A stretch of 63,287 nucleotides of DNA, filler included, from Collodictyon triciliatum (lineage: Eukaryota): NCBI GenBank assembly GCA_043381765.1. It is 9 parts of 9 records of this genome, joined end to end, with 100 filler letters (N's around TTAATTAATTAA, not from the genome) between each part and the next. Parts side by side here need not be neighbours in the genome. Positions count along the whole stretch, not along the records: positions 1 to 7,093 come from JBHJMP010004067.1; 8 more parts are not named here. One strand, 5' to 3'. Positions within the stretch are counted from its first letter, which is position 1. Each line of letters begins with the position of its first letter. The translations under genes and the position numbers were made by a program. Positions 1-21,380 of this stretch are shown one piece after another. The notes below the pieces were generated by a model that saw nothing but the letters and a program-made list of their open reading frames with translations, did not search any database and was not told the DNA's origin.

Positions 1-1
1 C

Positions 2-3000
2 TATGTTTCTGGCGCATCAGGAATCCCTGAAGAAAAATACAAAGGCTACAAGGAGACATTTGACCAAAGCTGGATTGATAAAAAAATTGAGACTCGTGGT
101 GAAGAAATCGAAAACAAAATGAAAATTCAATATGTTCAGGCCAAGAAATCTTTGTTCTGTGAGCTACTGAAGCATATTGGCGATGGCCAGAGTCCAGTCG
201 TGAAGAATCTGAAAATAGCTGGAAAAGTTGGACTTGGTTTGTTTAACGCTGCATCTGCTGCTTTCTCTTTCGACATCAGCGGCACTCTGGATTCATTGCA
301 GGAGGTTGCCACCGCTGTTGGAGAAATCGATATCAAAAAGAGTTGGTTTACATTCTATCAAATGCTTCGCGTTAGTTTATTAATCAGCGTTGATGAGGCG
401 AAAAAAGTATGGGATTCTCAATTTTCAGGAAAGAAGGACAAAGTTGGAGAAACCCTGGCATTCCTTATCATCGACACGATTTATGAATGCTATATCCACA
501 AACACAATACCTCTGAGGGAAAAAAAGTCCGCGAATTGATGGACCATATTACACGTCATGAAAAATGGTTGAAAAGTGAGTTTATTAACCGATTTGTGGA
601 AACAAAAAAGCAAGAAATGACAGAATATGAGCCAAAAGAGTCAAAATTACCTACAACTCTTTTTGAAAAGGCTGGTAAAGACGAAAGAACGATTCAAGAC
701 ATCGTCGAGAATATCAAGGAGGAGACCATTCGAAATGTAGAATTCAAAAGTCGTTTTAATACGTACATCTCTGGCCAAGCTGAAAGAATTGCTGAGAAAG
801 GAAAGGTGTTTGGTGCGCAAAAGTACATCCTGAGTTTTTTCACATCACCAAAAGAAAAAGTGCTGCTTATACTCGGCGATTCTGGATCTGGAAAATCACT
901 GTTACAACAGTATATTGTGCGATTGCTTTGGGAAAACTATGAATATGGAAAGTCGCATATTCCATTGTATGTTGCTCTTACTTCGTTGGTAAAGCCTAGA
1001 GAAAACGCCATCGAGGAACTGCTTCTTTCTGAAAGTAAAAACAGCTTCTACATCCCAGACTCTGATTTTCGAGTCGACCAAATTAAAGAACTGAAAAAGA
1101 TGAAATTCGTATTTTTCCTGGATGGTTACGATGAGATTGACGATAGTGGTGCATCTTTCTACAAATCAAATAAACTGGAAGAATGGCCCAACTGCAAGTT
1201 TGTCATTGGATGCCGCAAGCAGTTTTTGGACAAGAAATCTCAGTACCAATCACTATTTGCACCCAAAGCTAGTCATGGATACTCTCTGGATGAAATATAT
1301 TTGAGACCTTTTGAAACTAAGCAAAGGCTTGATTACTTCAACAAGTATGCTGAGAGAAATCCCATTGAAGGATGGGAAAATGGTGAAAGGTACGAGGAAG
1401 AGTTGAAGAACATCAAAGAGCTTGACGAATTGGCTGTCACTCCGTTTATGATTTTCATGGCAGCCACCACCCTGCCGTCTATACTGAAGGAAAAAGCTGA
1501 GTCCAAGTCGAAATATAACGCAAAGATGCTGAGGACGGACTTTCTAAACAAGTTTTCGAGAAGATGGTTTGAACGCGAAAGAGAGAAGCTTGAAAGTAAT
1601 ATATCTTTAAAGAAAATAATGCCTGAGGATTTAGAAAGGCTGCTTTGGGCAAAGTGCAAAGATATTGCAGAAGTCATGTTCCAGAAAGGCCATCTTGCTT
1701 TGGAGTACGATAAAGTTGAGGGGAAAGCAAAGAAGCACGAATATGACGAATTTTTTCATCCAAATCCAGACCATATGATTGATGGTGAGCGAACTTACTC
1801 AGTTTTTGTATTGCGATGTGCACCCATTAAGAAATCTAGTGGGACGACCTATGAGTTCTTCCACAAATCGCTGTACGAATTCTTTGCTGCTGAGTACATC
1901 AAAGACGAAATTATTAGTTCTGGTGCGGAAAATCAAAGTTCTGCCGAATCATCAACGGAAGCTCAAAATGTTGCATCTTCCTCTGAACCCGTGAATTCTA
2001 TGCCTGGGAAATCTGATCCAAAATCACCAAGCTTCAAACTTTTCAATGCTGTCCATTCTGTGATGAAATCAAAACTGAAGACGAATGTTCTGGATAAAAA
2101 GCTTGAGCCTGCCATTCTGCTCAACCTGAGTGAAAAAGTGAACAAAGACAAAACTTACAAAGACAATCTCTTTTCAATCATCGAACAATCTAAGGCAGAT
2201 GCAAGCAAAGCGCAAGCTGCGTCAAATGCCATCACAGTTCTGAATTATGCTGACGTTTCATTTAGTGGCATGGATTTCAGAGGGATTCAAATTCCAAATG
2301 CCGACATGTCACAGTCTGTTGCTGATGGTGCTGACTTCACTGGCGCCAACTTGGAGGGTGTTTTGTTCTATAATGCGTGCATTTCAAACTGTGTTTTTGA
2401 TAGTGCTAATATGAAAGGCGTTAGTTTTGGTCGCTTGCCTTTGTTTTTGGGACATACAGATGAAGTCAATAGTGTTTGCAGCATTCAAGGACCGAACGGT
2501 GAAAACTGGCTGGCTTCTGGAAGTCGTGATAAAACAATACGTGTTTGGGATGTAGCCACAGGAAACCAAATCAAAACATTTGAAGGCCATACAAGTTCTG
2601 TTAATAGTGTTTGCAGCATTCAAGGACCGAATGTTGAAAAGTGGCTGGCTTCTGGAAGTAGTGATAGAATACGTATTTGGGATGTAGTCACAGGAAACCA
2701 AATCAAAACATTAGAAGGTCATACAAATTATGTCAGGAGTGTCTGCAGTATTCAAGGACCGAATGGTGAAAACTGGTTGGCTTCTGGAAGTGAAGATAAA
2801 ACAATACGTATTTGGGATATAGCCACAGGAGACCAAATCAAAACATTAGAAGGCCATACAAATGATGTCATGAGTGTTTGTAGTATCCAAGGACCGAACG
2901 GTGAAAACTGGTTGGCTTCTGGAAGTGAAGATAAAACAATACGTATTTGGGATATAGCCACAGGAGACCAAATCAAAACATTGGAAGGTCATAAAACATC

Positions 3001-6000
3001 TGTCACTAGTGTTTGCAGTATTAAAGGACCGAATGGTGAGAATTGGCTGGCTTCTGGAAGTCGTATTATCTATGGAGGTGGTGATAAAACAATACGTATT
3101 TGGGATATAGCCACAGGAAACCAAATCAAAATATTAAATGGTCATACAGAACCTGTCACCAGTGTTTGCAGTATTCAAGGACCGAATGGTGAAAACTGGC
3201 TGGCTTCTGGAAGTGTTGATAAAACAATTCGTATTTGGGATGCAGCCACAGGAAACCAAATCAAAACATTAGAAGGACATTCAAATTGGGTCAAAAGTGT
3301 TTGCAGTATTGAAGGACCGAATGGTGAAAAGTGGCTGGCTTCTGGAGGTCGAGATGATACTAACATACGTATTTGGGATGTAGCCACAGGAAACCAATTC
3401 AAAAAATTAGAAGGTCATACAAATATTGTCAATAGTGTTTGCGGTATTCAAGGACCGAATGGTGAGAATTGGTTGGCTTCTGGAAGTTTGGATAAAACCA
3501 TACGTATTTGGGATGTAGCCACAGGAAACCAAGTCAAAATATTAGAAGGACATACAAGAGGTGTCAACAGTGTTTGCAGTATTCAAGGACCGAATGGTGA
3601 AAATTGGTTGGCATCTGGAAGTTCTGATGGAACAATACGTATTTGGGATGTAGCCACAGGAAACCAAATCAAAATATTAAAAGGTCATGCAAATTTTGTC
3701 ATAAGTGTTTGCAGTATTCAAGGACCGAATGGTGAAAATTGGTTGGCCTCAGGAAGTCGTGATAAAACAATACGTATTTGGGATGTAGCTACAGGAAACC
3801 AAGTCAAAATATTAGAAGGCCATAAAAATGATGTCTGGAGTGTTTGTAGTATTCAAGGACCGAATGGTGAAAAGTGGCTGGCTTCTATTGGAAAATATGA
3901 TAATGCAATACGTATTTGGGATGTAGCCACAGGAAACCAAATCAAAACATTAACAGGACATACATGGTCTGTAAACAGTGTTTGCAGTATTCAAGGACCG
4001 AATGGCGAAAACTGGTTGGCTTCTACTGGAAGTGAAGATAGAACAATACGTATTTGGGATGTAGCCACAGGAAACCGAATCAAAACATTAGGAAGTCTTA
4101 CAGAACCTGTCACCAGTGTTTGCTGTATTCAAGGACCGAATGGTAAAAATTGGCTGGCTTCTGAAGGTGGTAGTGATAAAACAATACATATTTGGGATAA
4201 AACAATACGTATTTGGGATGTAGCCACAGGAAACCAAATCAAAACATTAAAAGGACATACAAATGCTGTCTGGAGTGTTTGCAGTATTCAAGGACCGAAT
4301 GGCGAAAATTGGCTGGCTTCTGGAAGTGAAGATGAGACAATACGTATTTGGGATGTAGCCACAGAGAACCAAATACATAGCCTGCAAAAATCAGAAGTGA
4401 CCTACCATGAAAAGAGCCAATTGGTTACGAAAGATAAGTCAGAAGAAATCATTGCAATGTTAAATAGAACAAGTGATGCGATGAACATGATTGATACAAG
4501 CAGGATAATGAACGTGAGAACTGTTCGAATTATTGGCCCAAGAACACTTGAGGCTGCAAATACTCTTATAAACAGAGCTGAATTGGGTGAGATGAACAAG
4601 AAACTATTCCTGCAAGAAGGTGCTGCCTCCTTTGATGCGGACTTTGTTGCCTATTGTGAGCAGGGTAAGTTCAAACAGCTCCAGGCTCAAATGATGGCTG
4701 AATGCTATGAGAATGGATGGGGTGTTGAGAAGGACACAGAGAAAGTAGTTGAATGGTTTGGAAAAGCTGAAAACTTTGACAGACTGAGGCAACTCGTACA
4801 GCAAGGCTCAAAGGAGACATTCAATGTCTTGAATGAAATGGCTGACATTGAAGACGAAGAATATGGGGAATACAAATATCCACAAGCTGTTTCTACTGTT
4901 GCTGAATGCTATGAGAATGGATGGGGTGTTGAGAACGACACCGGGAAAGCAATTGAATGGTTTGGAAAAGCTGAAAACTTTGACAGGCTCAAGCAGCTCG
5001 CGCAACAAGGCAAAATGGAGGCATTTAATGTTTTGAAAGAAATGGCTGAAATCGTAGACGAGGATTATGGTGAACACAAACATCCACAAGCTGTTTCTAT
5101 TGTTGCTGAATGCTATGAGAATGGATGGGGTGTTGAGAACGACACCGGGAAAGCAACTGAGTGGGGTCTATTGGCTCTGAAAGCAGCTCAAAACTTTGAC
5201 AGGCTGAGGCAACTCGCACAGCAAGGCTCAAAGGAGGCATTCAATGTTTTGAAAGAAATGGCTGATATTGAAGATGATTTTGGATACAAACATCCACAGG
5301 CTGTTTCTATTGTTGCTGAATGCTATGAGAATGGGTGGATTGTTGAAAACGACACCGGGAAAGCAATGGAATGGTTTGGAAAAGCTGAAAACTTTCACAG
5401 GCTGAGGCAACTCGCGCAACAAGGCAAAAAGGAGGCATTCAATATTTTGAATGAAATGGCCGAAAAGAAAGATAGGAATAACGAACAAAAACATCCACAG
5501 GCTGTTTCTATTGTTGCTGAATGCTATGAGAATGGATGGGGTGTTGAAAACGACACCGGGAAAGCAGCCGAGTGGTTTCGAAAAGTTGAAAACTTTGACA
5601 AACTGAAGCAACTTTCACACCAAGGCTCAAAAGATGCATTCAATGTCTTGAAAGAAATGGCTGAAATGAAGGATAGTAGGAGATACAAATATCCACAGGC
5701 TGTTTCTATTGTTGCTGGATGCTATGAGAATGGATGGGGTGTTGAAAAGGACACCGAGAAAGCAACTGAGTGGGGTCTATTGGCTCTGAAAGCAGCTCAA
5801 AACTTTGACAGGCTGAAGCAACTCGCACAGCAAGGCTCAAAAGATGCATTCAATGTCTTGAAAGAAATGGCTGAAATGAAGGATAATAGGAGATACAAAT
5901 ATCCACAGGCTGTTTCTATTGTTGCTGAATGCTATGAGAATGGATGGGGTGTCGAAAAGGACACCGAGAGAGCTATCGAGTGGCTTGGAAAAGCTGAAAA

Positions 6001-6202
6001 CTTTGAAAAACTGAAGCAACACGCACAACAAGGCAAAAAGGAGGCATTCAATATTTTGAAAGAAATGGCTGAAATGAAATATGAAAATGAATACATATAT
6101 CCACAGGCTGTTTCTATTGTTGCTGAATGCTATGAGAATGGATGGGGTGTTGAAAAGGACACCGAGAAATCAGCTGAGTGGGGACAGAAAGTCTCAGCTT
6201 AA
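2..6202 (+). CDS. NLR-like STAND protein: helical N-terminus, NACHT NTPase, pentapeptide repeats, 14x WD40, 8x Sel1-like repeats (5'-truncated)
   Basis: The frame is open from nt 2 (YVSGASGIPEEK...ENK then M at 119) to TAA at 6200-6202, with no intron. Walker A LILGDSGSGKS (~865-898), Walker B FVFFLDGYDEI (~1106-1138), winged-helix FFHKSLYEFFAA, pentapeptide block NAITVLNYADVSFSG...ANMKGVSFG, WD40 array and AECYENGWGVEKD Sel1 motifs. Confidence 0.92.
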   Translation, partial: YVSGASGIPEEKYKGYKETFDQSWIDKKIETRGEEIENKMKIQYVQAKKSLFCELLKHIGDGQSPVVKNLKIAGKVGLGLFNAASAAFSFDISGTLDSLQEVATAVGEIDIKKSWFTFYQMLRVSLLISVDEAKKVWDSQFSGKKDKVGETLAFLIIDTIYECYIHKHNTSEGKKVRELMDHITRHEKWLKSEFINRFVETKKQEMTEYEPKESKLPTTLFEKAGKDERTIQDIVENIKEETIRNVEFKSRFNTYISGQAERIAEKGKVFGAQKYILSFFTSPKEKVLLILGDSGSGKSLLQQYIVRLLWENYEYGKSHIPLYVALTSLVKPRENAIEELLLSESKNSFYIPDSDFRVDQIKELKKMKFVFFLDGYDEIDDSGASFYKSNKLEEWPNCKFVIGCRKQFLDKKSQYQSLFAPKASHGYSLDEIYLRPFETKQRLDYFNKYAERNPIEGWENGERYEEELKNIKELDELAVTPFMIFMAATTLPSILKEKAESKSKYNAKMLRTDFLNKFSRRWFEREREKLESNISLKKIMPEDLERLLWAKCKDIAEVMFQKGHLALEYDKVEGKAKKHEYDEFFHPNPDHMIDGERTYSVFVLRCAPIKKSSGTTYEFFHKSLYEFFAAEYIKDEIISSGAENQSSAESSTEAQNVASSSEPVNSMPGKSDPKSPSFKLFNAVHSVMKSKLKTNVLDKKLEPAILLNLSEKVNKDKTYKDNLFSIIEQSKADASKAQAASNAITVLNYADVSFSGMDFRGIQIPNADMSQSVADGADFTGANLEGVLFYNACISNCVFDSANMKGVSFGRLPLFLGHTDEVNSVCSIQGPNGENWLASGSRDKTIRVWDVATGNQIKTFEGHTSSVNSVCSIQGPNVEKWLASGSSDRIRIWDVVTGNQIKTLEGHTNYVRSVCSIQGPNGENWLASGSEDKTIRIWDIATGDQIKTLEGHTNDVMSVCSIQGPNGENWLASGSEDKTIRIWDIATGDQIKTLEGHKTSVTSVCSIKGPNGENWLASGSRIIYGGGDKTIRIWDIATGNQIKILNGHTEPVTSVCSIQGPNGENWLASGSVDKTIRIWDAATGNQIKTLEGHSNWVKSVCSIEGPNGEKWLASGGRDDTNIRIWDVATGNQFKKLEGHTNIVNSVCGIQGPNGENWLASGSLDKTIRIWDVATGNQVKILEGHTRGVNSVCSIQGPNGENWLASGSSDGTIRIWDVATGNQIKILKGHANFVISVCSIQGPNGENWLASGSRDKTIRIWDVATGNQVKILEGHKNDVWSVCSIQGPNGEKWLASIGKYDNAIRIWDVATGNQIKTLTGHTWSVNSVCSIQGPNGENWLASTGSEDRTIRIWDVATGNRIKTLGSLTEPVTSVCCIQGPNGKNWLASEGGSDKTIHIWDKTIRIWDVATGNQIKTLKGHTNAVWSVCSIQGPNGENWLASGSEDETIRIWDVATENQIHSLQKSEVTYHEKSQLVTKDKSEEIIAMLNRTSDAMNMIDTSRIMNVRTVRIIGPRTLEAANTLINRAELGEMNKKLFLQEGAASFDADFVAYCEQGKFKQLQAQMMAECYENGWGVEKDTEKVVEWFGKAENFDRLRQLVQQGSKETFNVLNEMADIEDEEYGEYKYPQAVSTVAECYENGWGVENDTGKAIEWFGKAENFDRLKQLAQQGKMEAFNVLKEMAEIVDEDYGEHKHPQAVSIVAECYENGWGVENDTGKATEWGLLALKAAQNFDRLRQLAQQGSKEAFNVLKEMADIEDDFGYKHPQAVSIVAECYENGWIVENDTGKAMEWFGKAENFHRLRQLAQQGKKEAFNILNEMAEKKDRNNEQKHPQAVSIVAECYENGWGVENDTGKAAEWFRKVENFDKLKQLSHQGSKDAFNVLKEMAEMKDSRRYKYPQAVSIVAGCYENGWGVEKDTEKATEWGLLALKAAQNFDRLKQLAQQGSKDAFNVLKEMAEMKDNRRYKYPQAVSIVAECYENGWGVEKDTERAIEWLGKAENFEKLKQHAQQGKKEAFNILKEMAEMKYENEYIYPQAVSIVAECYENGWGVEKDTEKSAEWGQKVSA
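2447..4380 (+). repeat. 14 tandem ~135-nt (45-aa) WD40 repeats with high internal identity
   Basis: Consensus LEGHxxxVxSVCSIQGPNGENWLASGSxDKTIRIWDVATGNQIKT repeated 14 times. The copies are also near-identical at DNA level. Confidence 0.95.
4695..6190 (+). repeat. 8 tandem ~66-70-aa Sel1-like helical units
   Basis: CYENGW occurs 8 times within the unit AECYENGWGVExDTxKAxEWFGKAENFDRLxQLAQQGxKEAFNVLxEMA...YPQAVSIV. Confidence 0.88.
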
Positions 6203-6995
6203 CTAGGTAAGGAATATTAATAAATGCATATTAAAATACATGTTTCTTAATTATGTCTATAATAGATGGAGGGATTCTTGGGGTTTTTTCAAGCAGACCT
6301 CCGCTTTTTCCCAGAAGGACGCTCCATGAAAACAGAATAAAAACAAAAAAAAATGGAAGCAGAGCTGATTGATGTCTGTCCAAAACCTTTTCTTTTCTTC
6401 TCTGCTTAGAATAGTGACATGATTACTTTTATTCGCACAGACAAAGCATCGCCTTCTTTCCTGATAATCGTGTTGTAACATGAGCTGTAAAGAGGAACCA
6501 AGAACCCAGAAAAAAACCTCACAGTCTCATCGGCGTAAATCGTGTCCATAATGACTGCACATAAAGCATAGTTTTTTTTTTCATTTTCAAACTTATCTAT
6601 TCAATTTTGTGTGCTTATGTCTCTACTTTATGCATTTTTTTACGGGTCGAATTTTTCCCTTTTTATGTACAACAATATGTATTGTGCACTTAACCTTGTT
6701 TATTCCAGGCGATTACTTTAGCCTCATTGTGCTTCCTTTGGATTGCCTCTGGTTAGTCGCTTTCAAATCCCGCATGTTGTCTTCATCTGATGACTTTTTT
6801 TTTTATCACCATCTACACGTTTTGGCTACTTTTGCTTCACAACAAACCTTTTTTTTCCTTGATGAAATAGAACCCTCCATAATCCAACAATTAAAACATT
6901 AATTTTGAACCTTTTCTATAAAAAAAGACTACAAATTACTTCATGAATAAAAATTAATTCACCATTTCATCTCGTTTTCATTTAAAAAGAACACA

Positions 6996-7009
6996 TAGAT
7001 GGATAGATG

Positions 7010-7093
<84 letters not shown>
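6996..7093 (+). repeat. (GATA)n microsatellite at contig end
   Basis: Direct reading. Confidence 0.95.
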
Positions 7094-7193
7094 NNNNNNN
7101 NNNNNNNNNNNNNNNNNNNNNNNNNNNNNNNNNNNNNTTAATTAATTAANNNNNNNNNNNNNNNNNNNNNNNNNNNNNNNNNNNNNNNNNNNN
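7094..7193. other. Artificial contig-joining spacer
   Basis: 44 N + TTAATTAATTAA (stops in all six frames) + 44 N. Confidence 0.97.
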
Positions 7194-11580: not shown

Positions 11581-14080
11581 TCAAAAGAGACCGGAGTTTC
11601 GCATGCGAGATAGCAAGCAGGAGAATACGATGTAGAATACAAGCATTCCTAATATCCAGGACGATTCCACCGTAGCAAAAGTTAACCTTGGGGCAAACAC
11701 ACCCCAGAGCATTAGATGGTGCCTTTGAAGAAGACAGGACAGTGCTATACTCCACCAAAATGAGGCAATATGAGGCACTATCAAGAAGGACATGGTGCGT
11801 TCTGGGCTACAGTCGATTTGGGAGTACACAAACGAATGTCTAAATACCCTCGGAGTGGTGACCATGAACGCAATCGACAGATAAATCGAAAATCCCCATG
11901 TATTAATGAAAAGAAGAAATCCATTAAGATAAAAGTTGAATTCAGACAAACCAGTCATTCCTCGACTTATCTGTAAAGCTCCAAAAACAGGTGCATGGGT
12001 AGTGGCGTAAAATGCGTATTGAATGAAAAGAAACCACCAGGTGCACCAGATAAAAATATTTGATAAAGAAGCTGGCTCTTGTGTGCTGGTGTATTTTTCA
12101 AATTTAGTTCTTTCCTCCAAACAGGCAAATATTTCTGTCACAAATATTATAGTTGCCGACATGAGAACCGACACGAATATGGTGCTCATCCCACCGATAA
12201 TCCAGAGTAATGGAAGAGCGAATTGTGCGTCATCCAAGTATCTAACCATGATGTTTTGTTGGGTTGGTGTGACGTAGTAATTTCCTTTCAGTAAATGGTC
12301 ACTTGTAGGTTTCTTGGCTGGTATCACAGATATGATAACCCACAAAAATAGTATCCTCGGAGTCCACAAGTGTAAAAGACTAGTCACAACAAACACAACT
12401 GAATCTAACGGCATGTGTAATTGCAGAGTCTCCACGATGTAATAAATTTGGACCATGGCCACTGATATCAACCAGCGCGCGGTATATGTTTGGTTTGAAC
12501 CGAATTTTTTTTTCATGATAATAGTGTAAAATAGAGCGGGCAATGTTGTTTGGAGTAAAATCTGAAAAGACGATCAGAAAATTGATGTTTGAGGAATAAT
12601 TGAATGGCATCGTTACTATTTATTCATATGTCGGTGGAAATCTATATATATATATATCTGTTACAGCAATAAATGGGAGGGGTATTTTACTTTTCAAACC
12701 AAATAATTGAGCTACCTTGATCAATGGTATTGTGAAGGTCGTTTCAAGAAAAAGCTCCAATATGGGCTTCGGTCTTATTTCTGGTATGTCATGGTCACCA
12801 AGAGACTCCGAATATTCCCCAAAGGTCAGACAACGGATGCACAGGAGGGTTCCAATCAAAAGTCCGCTCGTTCTCTTTACAAAATTCTGAATATTTGCGC
12901 ACAATATCAATTGTCTTTTTTTTGTAATTTACCATGTATGTGTGATATTGACGCACAATCTTTTGGCCATTAAAAATGAATTATAATTGAATATGCACAT
13001 TCAAATAATCTACCAACCTTTTCTGGTGGTGACATACGAGTCTTTGATATCATATTATGGATTGGAGAAAAGACAAACATGACAGTCAAGGACAAAATCA
13101 AATATCGTAAAACATAAGGTTCACAAATAATGAAAGAATTCGAGAATAAAGCACAACAACGGAGAGTCCAGACGAAAATAGTTGTAACACAGGTTTTTGA
13201 TATAGACCATAATCGGAAATTGCCGGAGTAGTTTGTTTGGAATATGATAATTATAGCACCAAAACCGCCGAGGGCGACTGCGACCAAGCCCAGAATCATC
13301 GGCTTCAGTCGGAAGGTTGACCAGTACATTCTCCCAAGCGACAGAGCAGTACGATAATATTCATCTAGTAGTAGGTGTGTATGACTATTATACGAGGTTT
13401 GATTAATATTAAAGTCTGATGACCAGAATTCCCTCATTCTTTCGTCGAGGTCGATCTTCAAAAACCCAAGTTTATTGATAAGCACTTCACTGTTTGATAT
13501 CAATGTATTTCCCTTTCTTCTTTCTTCTATTTGAAACATCATGTACTCGTGAGTGAAATTTGCAACGAGGTAAGAGTTCATTAAAGCGCATGCAGGTCCA
13601 GGCTGGCAAAATCCATTCAGCTGGTTCTGCAGGGAAACAAGTTCCCCGATGGGGTTGCCCAAACTTCCCCACGGTATATCTGTACCCAGAAGAAAAGCGA
13701 GCGTAGGACCTATGTCGATTTGATTTATGGTTCGAACGGTCCTGGAATATTCTTCTTCCCTAGATGCAATAAGATTTTCTCATTGATTTCAGAAAAGATA
13801 AGGAAAAGATGAAAAGAAATTGGCCAGGTTGGATGGTACATTCGTAAGAAATAAGGGTTATGTTTCTATGTGTGCACTTTACTTAACGGTATGGTACATA
13901 TAATAAGGAGGTCGTACTAAACTATTAAAGAACTCTAATAAAAAAAAAAAAAGATTTTATACATTCCACCAAGAGTGTCTGCGTCTGGCCAACCACACTT
14001 TGAAAATGCATACAAAAATGTGAATATCTCATCAGGACTAGAGCCCCCGTGGTTTCCCTCCTCTGTAGTTCCGTGGTCTC
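11581..14080 (-). CDS. PIGO: GPI ethanolamine-phosphate transferase 3 (PIG-O/Gpi13), 5'-truncated; spliced
   Basis: GDHGTTEEGNHGGSS, INQIDIGPTLAFLLGTDIPWGSLG, many TM helices, FYATTH, and C-terminal QRHHLMLWGVFAPRL. Confidence 0.85.
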
Positions 14081-16377: not shown

Positions 16378-19300
16378 CTAGCTCTGGTCGAGCGCAATCT
16401 TCTCGCGCATGACGCGGGCTGCCACGGCGGCGTCCTCTGCTTGGATGCTGTATCTCGTGGCGAGGGCGGCTTCGTCCATGGAGCAAAACTCCTCCGCAGA
16501 GAGCGTGTCCTCCTCTGCAAGAGCCTTGCTGGCGGCAACCGCCCCGTTCTCGCGCAGATACTCGACAAGCTCGCCGTTGTACATATCCAACAGACGAGGG
16601 TATTTCACCGGCAGCATTTCGTCCAGCGCCTCCTGCGGCAGCTCGTAGCCCGAAAGAATCAGGTTCTGCAAAAAGATAAAGATGGACCGCAGCGTCGGTC
16701 GCGTCTTGTAGTTCTGCCGCCAGCAGGCCTTGATCAGATGCTGGATCTCCTTGGGCGTGTGCGCCGGAATCTCGGGTCTGCCTCCGCGAATCGTCTTTGC
16801 CTGTGGCAGTGGATGGTTTGCAAACGGCTCTGCTCCACAGAACATGTACCACAGCACAAGTCCAAAGGCATAGACATTGCTGGGTTCTCCGCGGTGGCCG
16901 ATGTTCGCCCCGTCCTCCCCGTAAATGCTTGCGTCTTCGTAATGCGGCTTGCACACAACATCGTGGATCTCGGGTGCCTGCCAGTTCGTTGTGCCGGACT
17001 GCTTCCATTCCCCAAACTTGGTGGGGAGGTTAGACCCCACCTTGTCCCCGTCGCGGCGGCTCACGATTCCAAAGTCAGATATCTTTGCAGTCCCATCGCA
17101 TAGCATGATGTTTTCGGCCTTCAAATCTTCGTGGTACAGGTTCTTTGAGTGCATGAATATCAGTCCCTGGCAAATCTGTTTGGAGTAACGGACGATGTCT
17201 GGAACAGCCAGCGTCTTGGTCTCTGTGCTGTCGCTCAGTAATTTCTTGAGTGACACACCAGCGTCTTCCATAACCATGTAAAACTGATTGCCCTTTCGGT
17301 AGACGCCCAATAGCTCAACAATATATTCGCATTCGCGGCATTCATAGAGGAATTTGCTCTCTAAAATCATGGAGCCAACCACCTCAGCAATCGTAGAATA
17401 TTGAGTTGCCTTGATGGGCTGCACCTTGACAACAACATCGCGGTCATGTATCTTGGTTTTGTGCACAACTGCAACTCCCTCGGTTGAGATGACCTCTCCT
17501 AGTTGTACTTCTTCGCTAACCCAGATTTCCTTAAGTTCCGCGTCTATGTTCTCAGCAAGTTCACCTAGGATTAGACTCAACAAAATTAGTAATCAAGTAC
17601 TTATCCACTTGCTTATCCCTAGAGGCATGATGAGCCCTTGTAAATGTATATATATATATATATTTAAAAATTCTCGGATTGCTACCTTCGTGCACATCCT
17701 TTTTGTTCTCAGTTTCGGACTGAAGGGCCGCTTTTACTATCGGCCCGATAACAGGGAGCATAATTTCTTCCTTCTTGGGCTCCTCCTTCTTGGGTTCTTC
17801 TTTCTTGGGCTCTTCCTTCTTGGGCTCTTCCTTCTTGGGCTCTTCTTTCTTGGGTTCTTCCTTCTTGGGCTCTTCTTTCTTGGGCTCTTCCTTCTTGGGC
17901 TCTTCTTTCTTGGGCTCTTCTTTCTTGGGTTCTTCCTTCTTGGGTTCTTCTTTCTTGGGCTCTTCTTTCTTGGGCTCTTCTTTCTTGGGCTCTTCCTTCT
18001 TGGGCTGTTCCTTCTTGGGCTGTTCCTTCTTGGGCTCTTCTTTTTCCTTCACTGGGGACGATACCTCAACTGGCTTTACGTCTTTTGATTTCGGATCCGC
18101 GAAAAGTTTCTTTGGTGTTTGAGGCGATGATGAAGTTCAGTGCGAGGGCTCAGACATATTTGGATGCGATGTGAAATATCTAATGATGGGAAGCTATCAA
18201 GGACTAGACAAACCCCTTTGCTGCTTGATTCAGATCTGAGCTTTGTGGGAGTTTCTGTGTTATCAAAGGTTAAGGCAAACATTATGATTCATTTTTTTGA
18301 AGAATACGAAAACGAATTAGGATGATCTAAACAAAATCTCAAAACTTTCACATACCCTCTTCAATAAAGACTCTGCCTCTTTTCACTTTTCTGATATCCA
18401 GAATGTGACCCATGGAACACTTGTTCAAGTCCGATGTTTCAAAAGTGGAAGTTGTTTGAATGAATCCCCCAGTGCCCTTCGCACGACACTCGTGGCACTC
18501 CATCCGTGAATGTTTGAAAAAGTTTTGGCGGATTGAGATGATCTTGTGGCGAAGATATTCTAAGGCCTTGAATATGTCGATGTACTCCTTCTTCTCAGAG
18601 ATGACAACATACTTTCGAACTGTGATAGTCAGTTTGTGCTTATGAATTTGGAAGAGAATCTTCAGGTCATCTCCTGGCACATAATTAATGGTTTCCTCTG
18701 TCAAGTCTTTCACAGGACTCAAGCCTATCAAGGCAAGGTTTCGTAGATAAATGTTCTCGCCTTGGCGTTTTATAGAGGTGGTGTTTGACATCTTGATTAT
18801 GTTAAGTATGATATTGCTACTGTCAGCGGCTTGTATTTCTCTTTCACTGATCAAATCGATGTAGATTTCGGCTGCACAATTTGACTCTGCTTTTGGGCTC
18901 CAAAGAGCTTTTGTTGCTTCACCTTCACCCATTAAGGAGGGAAATACGATTGTATCCTGGCTGGACACCAAACCTAGGCCAAATGCATCAAATACAAACA
19001 AAAGTGTAGAGAAAGCTTGTTCAGTAATCTCAAGGCCAAAGTCCTTATTGACTTTCTTTTTGAAGTCTGCGATAGAGATTGTGCCGTTTGTTTGTGCGCC
19101 AGATTCCTGAACAGAAAATACACTACGGAACACGTGGACCAAAAAGAAAGGGTCCAGGAAGACTACACATCTAAGATTCTCGAAAGATGGCTGCCACACA
19201 ACAGTCCCAAGGCTGTGAAGGAAGGTAAGGACGGCTGTCACTTGAGATTGATTCATTTCCAGTTTGTCTCTTGCATATTCATAGATGTGATCAACGTTGA

Positions 19301-21380
19301 TATACTTTTGAGTTTTCCCATGGGCTTCCAGGAATGATTTCAGCTGGAGATAGGATGCTGGAATGACTTCGCTGATGTGATCCAGTCGGAGCATTCCTTG
19401 GTAGATGATCTGTTTGAGGTTGGATATACCCTTTCCATCTAGGTTGCTCACAGAGACAGTAGAGTCTAGGAATGTGTGGATTTTGTTCTCCTTTTTGATT
19501 TTTTCAATATCTTTTTTCATCTCTTCAGCGAACCGAGGGTTTTGCTTGTCACTATGGGTGCCGATCATTATGATTGTGGAACCAGGGGCATAGTCGTCAA
19601 GGAGTTTGGTCCAATGGGAAACATCGTTCTTGTCTTTGCCTTGGTCTAGGCGATAGACTATCAAAGCAAGAGCACCAGCTGATAAAAAGAAGGGGCGTAC
19701 TGGCTGGAATTGTTTGCTCCCGCCAAAGTCCCACATCTTGACAGAGATAGAATCTTCCTGTGAATCGCCGAGAGACATATCAAAGAAGTCCAGCTCTGTG
19801 ACTTGGACACCATCAGTGGGTTCCGGGTTTCCGACCACGGCGCTCTTGAATGACGCACCGGCCTGAGCCAACGATTTCGTAAGGGTGGTTTTACCTGCTC
19901 CTGGGTTACCCAACAAGACTAACCTTCCTTGAGTCCATTTCTGAGGAGACGTCTTTGCTTCATTTGCACCAGATATTGGTACCGTATTTGTGGTTTGTAA
20001 GTTCTCAGGCTCGGGTGTTTGTGTGATAGGATTTCCTTGGAGGAGAATGACGCTCTTGAGTCTGTTGAGCTTTGTAATTACTGGCGGTAGGACCTCGATG
20101 GCATTGTCGGAGAGATCGATTCTTTGTGCATTCTTGAGGTTGACGATGTCAATAGGGATTGCAGAGATTTTGTTTCCAGACAGATCAAGAACCTGGATCC
20201 AAGACATTTTTAAGAGCACCAGAGGTATCTCCACAAACTGATTTCGTCTCAAGTTCAGCTTCGAGAGATTGGAGAGGATCAGAACGGACTCTGGGAGGGT
20301 AGATAGCATGTTTTCAGACAGGTCGATAGAAGTCATACTGCCCCAGCGCTCCAACAAAAACGAAACGCTGGTGATGCTTTCGTTGACATGAACGCGGTCG
20401 TAGAAATCGAGGGCGTGAATAGCGCGCCGTTGCTCTGGGTCTAAGGGTGAGGCCCAGCATGGAAGTGTCGAGAGTCCGCGAGGCGACCGCTTCACTGCCG
20501 TCTTCCCTTCAGAAGCAATACGGAAGTCCTGCAGGCTCTTGAGGCGAGTGATTCCCTCAGGGAGGACATCGAGCTGCAAAGCATGCAAGACGATGAGGGC
20601 AAAGAAAAGGGAGCCGTCAATATTTAATCACACATTTATCAAAGAAAGAAAAAAAACACATACACAAATCACATCATCATCATCACATCACCACCACATC
20701 ATTACATTATCATCTTCACACCACCACATCATCGCATTATCACATCACCATCACATGACCACATCACCACCCACCGGCGTGTTCTGGATGCAGAGGGCAG
20801 AGAGGCCGGTCAGGAGCAGGACCCAACGGGGGAGATAGGCGACGGGGTTGTCGTGGAGATAGAGGGCGGAGAGAGCCGTGAGGGTGGAGACGCCGGCGGG
20901 GACCGCGGCAAAGCGGTTGTGGGCGATGTCCAGCAGGGTCAGGGCGGAGAGGGCGGAGATCCAGTGGGGCAGGTCGGCCAGCGCGTTGTGGCCCAGGCGC
21001 AGCTGCAGTAGGCGGCCCAGCAGCGACACCGGCTCCGGCATCCGCTCCAGCCCCCGCGCCTCCAGATCCAGCGCCGTGCGCCTCAGCAGCCCCCGGTCGC
21101 CCCCGGCCCACTCCGGCCGCAGCGCCTCGAGCAACCCCACCAGGTTCTCTGCTTGGGTCCCGGCCGGTGCCTCCGCTTCCGCTTCGGCCTCCATCTCCAC
21201 TTCCACTTCCATTCCCGCCTCTCGAACGACGTCCTCGTGATCCGCTTCTGGTTTGTCTGCTGCTGCTGTTGTTGCTGCTGCTGCCGCCTCATGTCCTGCC
21301 TTTCGGCGTCGCGTGTTGCCTGATTTCTTGCCCATGGGTGGTCTCTTGAGCTGGACGGTTGGGTTGCGTCGGGCTGTCAT
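16378..21380 (-). CDS. Roco protein: LRR, ROC GTPase, COR, (PKKEE)18 linker, protein kinase, SAM-like tail (~1491 aa, 5 exons)
   Basis: Predicted exons 21380-20775, 20573-18356, 18254-18214, 18109-17686 and 17564-16378 all have GT-AG ends and total 4476 nt in frame. ROC motifs GNPGAGKTT, PTDGV, WDFGG, GTHSD. COR motifs IPASY...FLHSLG...VFLDP. Kinase motifs VVVK, HEDLKAEN, DFG, APE. Confidence 0.85.
17765..18034 (-). repeat. Coding 15-nt tandem repeat, (PKKEE/Q)x18
   Basis: Direct reading. Variation between units is mostly synonymous. Confidence 0.93.

What the first reader, a model, noticed from the sequence alone, without database searches (positions are those of the whole stretch)
2447..4380. 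Protist NLR with HET-E-style hypervariable WD40 repeats (diversifying innate sensor)
Seen: the 14 WD40 repeats are almost invariant in their beta-strand scaffold but vary strongly at two loops. After GH the xxxVx positions read TDE-N, TSS-N, TNY-R, TND-M, KTS-T, TEP-T, SNW-K, TNI-N, TRG-N, ANF-I, KND-W, TWS-N, TEP-T, TNA-W. The residues around SGSxD also vary (R, S, E, V, L) and carry insertions such as RIIYGGG, GGRDDT and IGKYDN. Known: Podospora HET-D/HET-E/HET-R NACHT-WD proteins combine concerted evolution of repeats with positive selection at the equivalent loops on one propeller face. Inference: this protist carries a somatically or population-diversified recognition receptor with two 7-blade propellers, for allorecognition or pathogen sensing.
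Basis: partly seen in the sequence, partly recalled or inferred. Interest (0 to 1): 0.82.

Follow-up and report, generated by a model that had tools for sequence, protein, structure and literature searches.

The report
Protist-type NLR with hypervariable WD40 blades
A very large immune-receptor-like gene, probably from a freshwater protist, carries 14 look-alike WD40 blades that differ mainly at the loops expected to touch a ligand; this design is already known from fungi and bacteria, so it is a good new example rather than a new kind of thing.

Summary
One intronless ORF (window 2..6202, +, 2066 aa, open at its 5' end) reads: helical N-terminus, NACHT ATPase, pentapeptide repeats, 14 WD40 repeats (2450..4387), 8 Sel1-type units.

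The 39 scaffold codons are 90% identical in DNA (third positions 86%). Six loop codons are 51% identical. Their dN is 0.93 against a scaffold dS of 0.24, and 0 of 500 neutral simulations reached this.

The variable codons lie in the D-A loop and the B-C turn, as in Podospora HET-E. Relatives in Mortierella-type fungi and their endobacteria vary at the same positions.

The best full-length relatives are two Diphylleia rotans transcripts, about 33% identical. One has all the same domains including Sel1. The other has 14 repeats of the same 45-residue type, only 33% alike.

Not shown:
- somatic diversification
- a 7+7 blade split
- repeat-number variation
- assembly integrity; the contig is a roughly 7.1-kb scaffold and no outside contig among the pieces listed spans the array

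Verdict: new member of a known kind.

The parts
2..6202 (+). Single ORF of 2066 codons plus stop, open at the 5' end of the contig; first ATG at 119. It encodes the NLR-like protein P0001.
   Evidence: A related contig in run X1 extends at least 649 nt upstream of window position 1 (record 1), so the N-terminus is probably cut off by the contig end.
2..751 (+). All-helical N-terminal region (aa 1-250) of unknown family; possibly a remnant of the ARM-like solenoid that precedes NACHT in relatives.
   Evidence: The AF2 model is all helices there, with pLDDT mostly 50-70. Matches to Pfam ARM_5 are only sub-threshold (E 0.098). A profile built from relatives gives domain E 0.0019. hhalign probability is 24.8%. 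Only the two Diphylleia proteins match this part clearly (E about 5e-10 in a set of 194).
860..1351 (+). NACHT NTPase domain (aa 287-450), with Walker A GDSGSGKS (aa 292-299, nt 875-898) and Walker B FFLDGYDE (D374, D377).
   Evidence: Pfam PF05729, E 2.2e-8, 34.6 bits against a cut-off of 26.7. G292, G295, G297, K298, D374 and D377 are invariant in 40 aligned relatives. pLDDT exceeds 90 and the best PDB matches are NLRC4, NOD2 and NLRP3.
2246..2434 (+). Pentapeptide-repeat beta-helix linker (aa 749-811) between the NOD module and the WD40 array.
   Evidence: Pfam Pentapeptide, E 9.4e-7, 28.7 bits against a cut-off of 20.2. The AF2 model shows one strand every 5 residues with pLDDT above 92.
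2450..4387 (+). 14 tandem WD40 repeats with a 135-nt / 45-aa basic unit. Unit starts: 2450, 2585, 2717, 2852, 2987, 3140, 3275, 3413, 3548, 3683, 3818, 3956, 4094, 4253. In each unit the hypervariable codons are 3, 4, 5 and 7 (GH-xxx-V-x) and the two codons flanking the Asp of SGS-x-D-x-T.
   Evidence: In the AF2 model each unit has four strands, and the variable residues lie just before and at the start of strand A and in the B-C turn.
3065..3082 (+). 18-nt in-frame insertion (IIYGGG) in the B-C turn of repeat 5.
   Evidence: pLDDT is below 50 at model residues 222-226.
4175..4219 (+). 21-nt in-frame tandem duplication in repeat 13 (DKTIHIW / DKTIRIW). This repeat also has SL instead of GH.
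   Evidence: pLDDT is below 50 at model residues 589-599.
4667..6199 (+). Second internally conserved array: 8 Sel1-type units of 66-70 aa (the last one truncated), core motif ECYENGWGVEKD.
   Evidence: Pfam Sel1, E 8.9e-47, 8 stretches. Tandem Repeats Finder gives a 198-nt period, 7.3 copies, 82% matches. Unit DNA identity is 82.2%, third positions 76.5%.
6207..6265 (+). 59-nt GT..AG intron-like element starting five bases after the stop codon.
   Evidence: Sequence. One contig in each of runs X1 and X2 joins 6203 to 6264 with one extra letter. That equals exact removal of 6207..6265 plus one substitution (tables 5 and 5c).
6995..7093 (.). (ATAG)n microsatellite at which the contig ends.

Best explanation
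The region encodes the ligand-sensing end of a STAND/NLR-like receptor of a eukaryote, most likely a freshwater protist.

Shown:
- The domain order is helical N-terminus, NACHT ATPase, pentapeptide beta-helix, 14 WD40 repeats, 8 Sel1 units.
- The 14 repeats share a DNA-level scaffold (dS about 0.24).
- Six codons per repeat, all in the D-A loop or B-C turn, have diverged faster than synonymous sites.
- Single-residue and longer indels also fall in the B-C turn.

Inferred:
- The repeats arose by amplification of one unit, with some later exchange between units. r3 and r4 share an identical 83-nt stretch. r6 and r13 share their D-A loop codons.
- Selection then favoured new residues on the ligand-binding (top) face of a double propeller.
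- As in other STAND proteins, ligand binding to the repeat domain would release autoinhibition and allow NACHT-driven oligomerisation and signalling through the N-terminal part. That part is of unknown type and probably cut off by the contig end.
- A role in non-self or pathogen recognition is likely by analogy only.
For: Architecture: (NACHT, Pentapeptide, WD40 and Sel1 all above their Pfam cut-offs).

Intact ATPase motifs.

Fold: the NOD module model has pLDDT above 90 and matches NLRC4 (4kxf, E 6.6e-11), NOD2 and NLRP3. The WD model has four strands per unit, mean pLDDT 70.4, and its best match is 2ymu, 'highly repetitive propeller' (E 4.1e-29), followed among others by Apaf-1.

Evolutionary pattern:
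- scaffold (39 codons): dN/dS 0.28, dS 0.243
- six loop codons: dN 0.93, dS 0.37, ratio 2.5
- 0 of 500 neutral simulations reach the observed top-six pN

Exchange or burst: distances in the 5' and 3' halves of the scaffold are uncorrelated (rho -0.13). r6 and r13 differ at 2 of 18 loop bases but at 10 of 117 scaffold bases.

Same positions elsewhere: in 7 of 7 relatives shown, entropy peaks at positions 4, 5, 7, 23 and 25 of their 42-aa repeat. I picked these 7 for repeats that matched my profile well and were alike, out of 38 relatives with any match. Paoletti 2007 (PMC1805685, passages read) places the selected HET-E positions in the D-A loop and the B-C turn on top of the propeller.

Family: 3657 proteins match at E <= 0.001. 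The best are Diphylleia rotans proteins. P0046 is colinear over 1188 aa at 32% identity, including the same long A-B loop, and has Sel1.

Eukaryotic origin: (GT..AG element absent from related contigs), and the microsatellite end of the contig.
Against: - Assembly integrity is unverified. The contig is a roughly 7.1-kb scaffold ending in a microsatellite. Among the pieces that one search lists (32, with 1126 more not shown), none spans the array. Many related contigs exist that could have been mixed in.
- The repeats are less alike than the Podospora ones: mean DNA identity is 85%, with a single shared exact stretch of 50 nt or more. Ongoing concerted evolution is therefore not shown.
- I chose the hypervariable sites after seeing the data. 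The simulation allows for that but uses a simple tree and mutation model without recombination.
- Repeat 13 is irregular (no GH, a 7-aa duplication) and may be a defective blade or an assembly error.
- No effector domain was identified and the N-terminus is probably incomplete.
- No paralogue, allele or close relative could be fetched as sequence.
- The codon usage of the ORF does not closely match the few other ORFs of the same assembly.
Confidence: 0.72

Rival explanations
1. Assembly artefact. The array is a chimera or a collapsed/expanded reconstruction from several paralogous NLR genes that share the scaffold, so the number, order and combination of the 14 units are not those of any real gene.
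For: The window is a chain of roughly 7.1-kb scaffolds that end in simple repeats, typical of a fragmented short-read assembly. Runs X1 and X2 hold 392 and 423 contigs that lie on this stretch, most of them on the two repeat arrays, with many joints that skip or go back by whole units. A join between homologous positions of paralogues would keep the frame open.
Against: Only one exact stretch of 50 nt or more (83 nt) is shared between units, so reads of 100-150 nt can in principle order them. The frame stays open over 2066 codons. A Diphylleia relative also has 14 repeats. Even if the order were wrong, the individual units and their loop variation would still be real sequence.
Confidence: 0.2
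2. Neutral relaxation. A recent amplification of one WD40 unit was followed by ordinary purifying selection on the strands and no constraint on the loops, with no diversifying selection and no recognition role.
For: Loops are the least constrained parts of WD40 blades. The scaffold dS of 0.24 shows that the units are not very young. Indels and an irregular repeat 13 could be decay.
Against: Loop dN (0.93) exceeds both loop dS (0.37) and scaffold dS (0.24). 0 of 500 fully neutral simulations reach the observed top-six pN. The same positions vary in relatives from fungi and bacteria.
Confidence: 0.12
3. Bacterial gene. The contig comes from a bacterium (symbiont or contaminant) in the sample, like the many bacterial NACHT-WD40 genes with the same repeat pattern.
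For: The 6.2-kb ORF is intronless. Relatives include Mycoavidus and Glomeribacter endobacteria. All 8 earlier notes that the scan's look-up displayed for such arrays are bacterial. Codon usage differs from the other ORFs of the assembly.
Against: The two best hits, and the only ones that clearly match the N-terminal part, are from a Diphylleia rotans transcriptome. About 890 nt of AT-rich non-coding DNA and an (ATAG)n microsatellite follow the stop codon. A 59-nt GT..AG element is exactly absent from related contigs of two runs. No protein above 37% identity turned up among 1.84 billion representatives, which include prokaryotic genomes.
Confidence: 0.1

Closest known systems
Podospora anserina HET-E / HET-D / HET-R and the HNWD/NWD family (NACHT-WD40 fungal NLRs; Paoletti 2007 PMC1805685; Dyrka 2014 PMC4986451; passages read)
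   Same: NACHT followed by internally conserved WD40 repeats. The variable, positively selected residues form two pairs, in the D-A loop and the B-C turn on top of the propeller. Here the matching positions are 5 and 7, and the two residues flanking the Asp of SGSxDxT.
   Different: No HET domain. A pentapeptide linker and a C-terminal Sel1 array are present. The repeat is 45 aa with a longer A-B loop instead of 42 aa. DNA identity between units is lower (85% on average, not up to 100%). There is no RIP-like bias in the scaffold substitutions (C>T plus G>A 26, T>C plus A>G 32). Exchange between paralogues, repeat-number polymorphism and a genetic role are untested.
NACHT-pentapeptide-WD40 ('NACHT-PPR-WD40') NOD-like receptors of Mortierellomycota and Mycoavidus/Glomeribacter endobacteria (Ciach et al., bioRxiv 10.1101/2021.12.02.471044; Wojciechowski et al. 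2022; passages read)
   Same: Same domain order NACHT, pentapeptide, WD40. Recognisable sequence relatives: 29-31% identity over about 65-73% of aa 40-815, with E down to 8e-51. Many have internally conserved repeats that vary at the same positions.
   Different: Those proteins carry a clear ARM_5-type alpha-solenoid before NACHT (for example P0048, E 7e-42). Here that match is inconclusive. They use a 42-aa repeat. Among the family members whose domain lists I saw, only P0029 and the Diphylleia protein P0046 carry Sel1.
Diphylleia rotans transcriptome proteins P0045 and P0046 (EukProt EP00002)
   Same: Best hits overall (E 1.3e-74 and 2.3e-73). P0046 is colinear from the N-terminal helical part through NACHT, pentapeptide and WD40, and has Sel1. 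P0045 has 14 repeats of the same 45-aa type, with the GPxGExWLAS loop.
   Different: Only about 33% identical. Their repeats are 33% alike on average, not 78%. The internal conservation here is therefore a lineage-specific state.
PDB 2ymu, 'Structure of a highly repetitive propeller structure', and Apaf-1 (PDB 3sfz)
   Same: Best structural matches of the WD model: 2ymu_A E 4.1e-29 with 31% identity, and Apaf-1 E 2.3e-21. Apaf-1 is also a STAND ATPase with a tandem propeller sensor.
   Different: TM-scores are low (0.37-0.43) because the relative position of the two halves is not predicted.

Membership tests
STAND NTPase of the NACHT type (NLR-like) | NACHT domain detected above the curated threshold | tested here: met
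   PF05729, aa 287-450, E 2.2e-8, 34.6 bits against a cut-off of 26.7.
STAND NTPase of the NACHT type (NLR-like) | Intact Walker A (GxxGxGKS/T) and Walker B (hhhhDGxDE) motifs; the motif definitions are recalled | tested here: met
   GDSGSGKS at aa 292-299 and FFLDGYDE with D374 and D377. These columns are invariant in 40 aligned relatives.
STAND NTPase of the NACHT type (NLR-like) | NBD-helical-winged-helix fold like solved NLRs | tested here: met
   AF2 model from 40 sequences, mean pLDDT 75.7 and above 90 over the NOD core. Foldseek matches: NLRC4 4kxf E 6.6e-11, NOD2 5irm E 1.3e-10, NLRP3 NACHT 7alv TM (target) 0.57.
STAND NTPase of the NACHT type (NLR-like) | Tripartite build: N-terminal effector, NOD, C-terminal repeats | tested here: inconclusive
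   The NOD and the repeats are present. The N-terminal 250 aa are helical and of no recognised family, and are probably cut off by the contig end.
Highly repetitive / highly internally conserved WD40 repeats (Hu 2017: internal identity >= 0.7; Dyrka 2014: over 85% over at least 100 aa) | Internal identity above the published cut-offs | tested here: met
   Mean pairwise identity 0.78 and identity to the consensus 0.857 over 14 units, 646 aa. It clears 0.7 clearly. It sits at the 85% line only when measured against the consensus.
HET-E/HNWD-type hypervariable WD40 sensor | Variation concentrated in the D-A loop and B-C turn, with dN > dS | tested here: met
   compared with Paoletti 2007. Caveats: one gene only, sites chosen after seeing the data, and a simple null model.
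HET-E/HNWD-type hypervariable WD40 sensor | Concerted evolution of repeats within and between paralogues, and repeat-number polymorphism between strains | not testable with these tools
   No genome is held. No paralogue lies in the other scaffolds of the window. No close relative could be fetched. Within the gene only two signs of exchange are seen.
HET-E/HNWD-type hypervariable WD40 sensor | N-terminal HET death-effector domain | tested here: not met
   No HET match at E <= 1 in aa 1-815. The true N-terminus may be missing.
NACHT-pentapeptide-WD40 clade (Mortierellomycota / Mycoavidus) | Domain order NACHT, pentapeptide, WD40, and sequence relatedness of the NOD module | tested here: met
   Named hits include Linnemannia, Modicella, Mortierella, Entomortierella, Benniella, Dissophora, Mycoavidus and Glomeribacter.
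NACHT-pentapeptide-WD40 clade (Mortierellomycota / Mycoavidus) | ARM_5-type alpha-solenoid directly before NACHT | tested here: inconclusive
   Pfam ARM_5 E 0.098. A profile built from relatives gives domain E 0.0019 on aa 55-109. hhalign probability is 24.8%. The model is helical but of low confidence.

The most novel reading that the evidence does not exclude
A little-sampled freshwater protist lineage keeps a whole repertoire of NLR-like receptors built on one shared 45-aa WD40 scaffold, plus a second shared Sel1 scaffold. The units are shuffled between genes and selected for new ligand-contact residues. That would be a HET-E-like non-self or pathogen recognition system in a probably unicellular, non-fungal eukaryote, evolved from an ancestral 14-blade receptor that in Diphylleia is not homogenised. 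The hundreds of related repeat-bearing contigs in two related organisms would be that repertoire.
Probability: 0.3. Interest if true: 0.65.

Novelty: new member of a known kind. Interest (0 to 1): 0.42.

Why it matters
Internally conserved, loop-hypervariable repeat sensors on NLR-like proteins have been documented in filamentous fungi and in (mostly multicellular) bacteria. They are discussed there as a way to generate recognition diversity without adaptive immunity.

A clear case in a non-fungal microbial eukaryote would extend that strategy to another branch of eukaryotes. Its relative in Diphylleia has the same 14-blade build without homogenisation. That pair would give a natural before/after comparison for how such arrays arise.

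It also adds a receptor with two different internally conserved arrays in tandem (WD40, then Sel1).

My full-text searches found no paper describing such an NLR in protists. Hu 2017 counts some protist WD40 proteins among the highly repetitive ones without naming them in the text I read. Its supplementary tables, which I could not open, may list such proteins.

Tried and rejected
- Whole genome: none is held.
- Paralogues in the window: tblastn of the whole protein found 0 hits beyond position 7093. The other genes of the window are on other scaffolds and are not neighbours.
- Close relatives by protein search. Region 817-1462 against shorter proteins gave 7008 hits at E <= 1e-20 among 8000 candidates scored. 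Of these, 120 were listed, all 31-51% identical, and short fragments would rank below long WD40 proteins. Two repeats as a 90-aa query gave 3 hits out of 5 candidates, none above 54%.
- Metagenome contigs: a 30-nt degenerate pattern of the scaffold gave 0 matches. A protein-guided scan matched 211 stretches by pattern, and none was confirmed.
- Sequencing runs: five holders with small shares (0.05-0.10), and no RNA holder listed. Laying four of them showed related contigs, but no listed piece spans the array. Depth is not a copy number, so I draw no copy count from it.
- N-terminal domain: protein atlas best score 0.83 (DUF4765), below the level of a usable lead. The ARM_5 link is inconclusive.
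- Diversity-generating retroelement or RIP-like mutagenesis: the loop codons do not vary at adenines only, the scaffold substitutions show no C-to-T excess, and no reverse transcriptase lies on the contig. Rejected.
- Codon usage as a test of common origin with the other scaffolds: uninformative.
- One search was a pilot of the simulation. One search was an empty script run by mistake.

Full report
**What is in the sequence.** Window 2..6202 (+) is one uninterrupted ORF of 2066 codons that runs off the 5' end of the sequence; the first ATG is at 119. Pfam finds the following, all above their curated cut-offs:
- a NACHT domain at aa 287-450 (E 2.2e-8, 34.6 bits, cut-off 26.7)
- pentapeptide repeats at aa 749-811
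- WD40 repeats (PF00400, E 1.3e-120, 13 stretches)
- Sel1 repeats (E 8.9e-47, 8 stretches in the C-terminal 606 aa)

Nothing is recognised in aa 1-280.

**The window is a chain of scaffolds.** It consists of scaffolds of about 7.1 kb joined by spacers of 44 N, TTAATTAATTAA, 44 N. Most scaffolds end in simple repeats. The finding's own contig is therefore only window 1..7093. The ROCO kinase, PEX11 and PIG-O-like genes further on are not its neighbours. No whole genome is held.

**Checking the observation.** Splitting the protein at the SVC motif gives 14 units at nt 2450..4387. Tandem Repeats Finder independently reports the 135-nt period. Repeat 13 is irregular: SL replaces GH, and a 21-nt in-frame duplication is present. 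Repeat 5 has an 18-nt insertion.

The scaffold is well but not perfectly conserved:
- pairwise amino-acid identity is 0.78 overall and 0.86 without the six variable columns
- identity to the consensus is 0.857
- scaffold DNA identity is 90.4%, third positions 85.6%
- DNA identity at the six variable codons is 51%
- only one exact stretch of 50 nt or more is shared between units: 83 nt, between r3 and r4

**Is the variation more than chance or relaxed constraint?** I counted changes by the Nei-Gojobori method over all pairs of units. The 39 scaffold codons give dS 0.243 and dN 0.069 (ratio 0.28). The six loop codons (alignment columns 3, 4, 5, 7, 27, 36) give dN 0.93 and dS 0.37 (ratio 2.5).

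I picked those columns after seeing the data, so I simulated 45 codons evolving with omega = 1 on a UPGMA tree of the scaffold. Branch lengths were scaled until pS matched the observed value. From each run I took the six most variable columns. Their mean pN was 0.365 (maximum 0.474) against 0.549 observed. None of 500 runs reached the observed value. The result was the same with pS set to 0.26 and to 0.33.

The null model is simple: one tree, no recombination, kappa 2. This is good evidence, not proof, that the loop codons change faster than neutral.

**Where the variable residues lie.** An AF2 model of the array (single sequence, mean pLDDT 70.4, pTM 0.47) is all-beta with four strands per unit. 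In unit 1 the strands are VNSVCSIQ (A), NWLASGS (B), IRVWD (C) and QIKTF (D). The xxx residues therefore sit in the D-to-A loop just before strand A. The fourth variable residue is the second residue of strand A. The SGS-x-D-x residues form the B-C turn.

In a four-strand antiparallel meander, the D-A and B-C connections lie at the same end of the sheet. That is the 'top' face of a WD40 propeller. I did not have coordinates, so this rests on topology and not on measured distances.

Paoletti et al. 2007 (PMC1805685, passages read) report that the four positively selected HET-E codons are a pair in the D-A loop (7, 9) and a pair in the B-C turn (25, 27), on top of the propeller. The spacing and location match positions 5 and 7 and the two residues flanking the Asp here. 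One-residue insertions (r11, r12, r13 before the Gly; r7 after DDT) and the longer r5 and r13 insertions also fall in or next to the B-C turn.

The best PDB matches of the model are 2ymu ('highly repetitive propeller structure', E 4.1e-29, 31% identity) and, further down, Apaf-1. The split into two 7-bladed propellers is plausible but was not measured.

**Relations among the units.** The units are roughly equidistant. Differences in the 5' and 3' halves of the scaffold are uncorrelated (Spearman -0.13), and loop differences do not follow scaffold differences (0.11). Distance in the array has little effect.

Two signs of later exchange or duplication exist. r3 and r4 differ at 1 of 60 bases in the 3' scaffold half but at 5 of 57 in the 5' half. 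r6 and r13 carry the same D-A loop codons (2 of 18 loop bases differ) on scaffolds that differ at 10 of 117 bases.

Scaffold substitutions show no C-to-T excess, and loop codons do not vary at adenines only. So neither a RIP-like process nor a retroelement-type process is indicated.

A single amplification burst (dS about 0.24 ago) followed by divergence fits the data about as well as ongoing concerted evolution.

**Relatives.** A search of 1.84 billion representative proteins with aa 1-815 gave 3657 hits at E <= 0.001 and 432 at E <= 1e-30, but none above 37% identity.

The two best are from the EukProt transcriptome of Diphylleia rotans, a free-living protist:
- P0046 aligns colinearly over 1188 residues at 32% identity (E 2e-149). 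The alignment runs from the N-terminal helical part through NACHT and pentapeptide into WD repeats with the same extended A-B loop (GPEGESWLASG), and the protein has Sel1 repeats further on.
- P0045 has 14 repeats of the same 45-residue type, only 33% alike on average.

The 14-blade, 45-residue build is thus old, and its homogenised state here is specific to this lineage.

The next hits are Linnemannia, Modicella and Mortierella proteins. A word-based search also found Entomortierella, Benniella and Dissophora proteins and the endobacteria Mycoavidus and Glomeribacter, all with NACHT, pentapeptide and WD40. This is the 'NACHT-PPR-WD40' family described for Mortierellomycota and Mycoavidus (Ciach et al., bioRxiv 10.1101/2021.12.02.471044, passages read).

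Of the 38 relatives that matched my repeat profile, I displayed seven with well-matched, alike repeats. In all seven, variability peaks at positions 4, 5, 7, 23 and 25 of their 42-residue repeat. These are the same structural positions as here.

**The NOD module and the N-terminus.** In an alignment with 39 relatives the Walker A residues (G292, G295, G297, K298) and Walker B residues (D374, D377) are invariant and are present here. An AF2 model built on that alignment (mean pLDDT 75.7, above 90 over the NOD core and the pentapeptide helix) matches NLRC4, NOD2 and NLRP3 (E 6.6e-11 and weaker; NLRP3 NACHT TM 0.57 on the target).

The first 250 residues are predicted as helices with low to moderate confidence. 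Their link to the ARM_5-type solenoid that precedes NACHT in the fungal relatives is inconclusive: Pfam E 0.098, profile domain E 0.0019, hhalign probability 24.8%. The protein atlas gave no usable lead.

A related contig in run X1 continues at least 649 nt upstream of window position 1. P0046 has about 185 more residues at its N-terminus. The effector end of this protein is therefore probably missing from the contig.

**Other sequence data.** Five public runs hold small shares of the stretch, and I laid four of them.
- Two small runs from organisms coded A and B hold a relative about 88% identical over the N-terminal part (94 differences in 804 bases). They also hold 392 and 423 contigs that lie on the stretch, mostly on the WD and Sel1 arrays.
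- Two freshwater metagenomes hold fragments. One is a 160-nt piece with no differences.
- Among the 32 pieces listed (1126 more were not shown), none spans the array. The many joints that skip or repeat whole units cannot be told apart from paralogues or assembly tangles. Collapse or chimerism therefore remains untested.
- One contig in each of X1 and X2 joins 6203 to 6264 with one extra letter. Read against the sequence, this equals exact removal of a 59-nt GT..AG element at 6207..6265 plus one substitution. That hints at a spliced 3'-UTR intron and so at a transcribed eukaryotic gene. The run type, however, is only guessed to be RNA.

Attempts to fetch related DNA or protein from the large collections found nothing close.

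**Second array.** The C-terminal 8 Sel1-type units (66-70 aa) are also alike in DNA (82.2%, third positions 76.5%). Their variation is mostly in the linker between units and at one position of the KAxEW motif.

**Comparison with what is known.** Internally conserved WD40, ANK and TPR repeats with positively selected ligand-face residues are established for fungal NLRs (Paoletti 2007; Dyrka 2014, PMC4986451; passages read).

Highly repetitive WD40 proteins with variable 'hotspot' sites have been catalogued. About half of the 305 are bacterial, about a third fungal and none from animals or plants, and protists are among the groups named (Hu 2017, PMC5587647, passages read). Its supplementary tables were not available to me.

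This scan has itself noted at least 15 such arrays in at least 13 genomes, and the 8 displayed are bacterial. My three full-text searches found no paper describing such an NLR in a protist. That is not proof that none exists.

**Verdict.** It belongs to the NACHT-pentapeptide-WD40 family and works, as far as sequence can tell, like the HET-E type of sensor. It is not a member of the HET/HNWD family.

What is new is the host lineage, the extra Sel1 array, and the contrast with a non-homogenised 14-blade relative in Diphylleia.

Somatic diversification, population polymorphism, the blade split, the effector and the integrity of the assembly all remain open.

Noticed in passing
window 7094-7193 and seven further places (14287, 21554, 28745, 35940, 43125, 50310, 57491): The window is not one molecule. 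Scaffolds of about 7.1 kb are joined by spacers of 44 N, TTAATTAATTAA, 44 N, and most ends lie in microsatellites or homopolymer runs. Gene neighbourhood across these points is meaningless.
   Followed up: yes
window 6207-6265: A 59-nt GT..AG element starts five bases after the stop codon. One related contig in each of two runs lacks exactly this element. It may be a 3'-UTR intron, which would mean the relative's gene is transcribed and spliced.
   Followed up: partly
window 4667-6199: A second internally conserved array of 8 Sel1-type units (66-70 aa, 82% DNA identity) lies behind the WD40 array. The Diphylleia relative P0046 also ends in Sel1 repeats.
   Followed up: partly
window 2450-4387 against 2-2446 and 4388-6199: Third-position G+C is 0.25 in the WD40 array but 0.41 and 0.39 in the rest of the same ORF. 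This may simply reflect amplification of one AT-rich unit.
   Followed up: no
window 16378-20588 (-), on another scaffold: Two adjacent ORFs carry LRR, Roc, COR-A and a protein kinase domain: a ROCO/LRRK-type kinase, probably one gene. Its G+C (0.46-0.54) is higher than that of the other scaffolds.
   Followed up: no
window 30977-31714 (+) and 11581-12543 (-), on other scaffolds: PEX11-like and GPI ethanolamine-phosphate transferase (PIG-O/PIG-G)-like ORFs. These are eukaryotic housekeeping genes in the same assembly.
   Followed up: no
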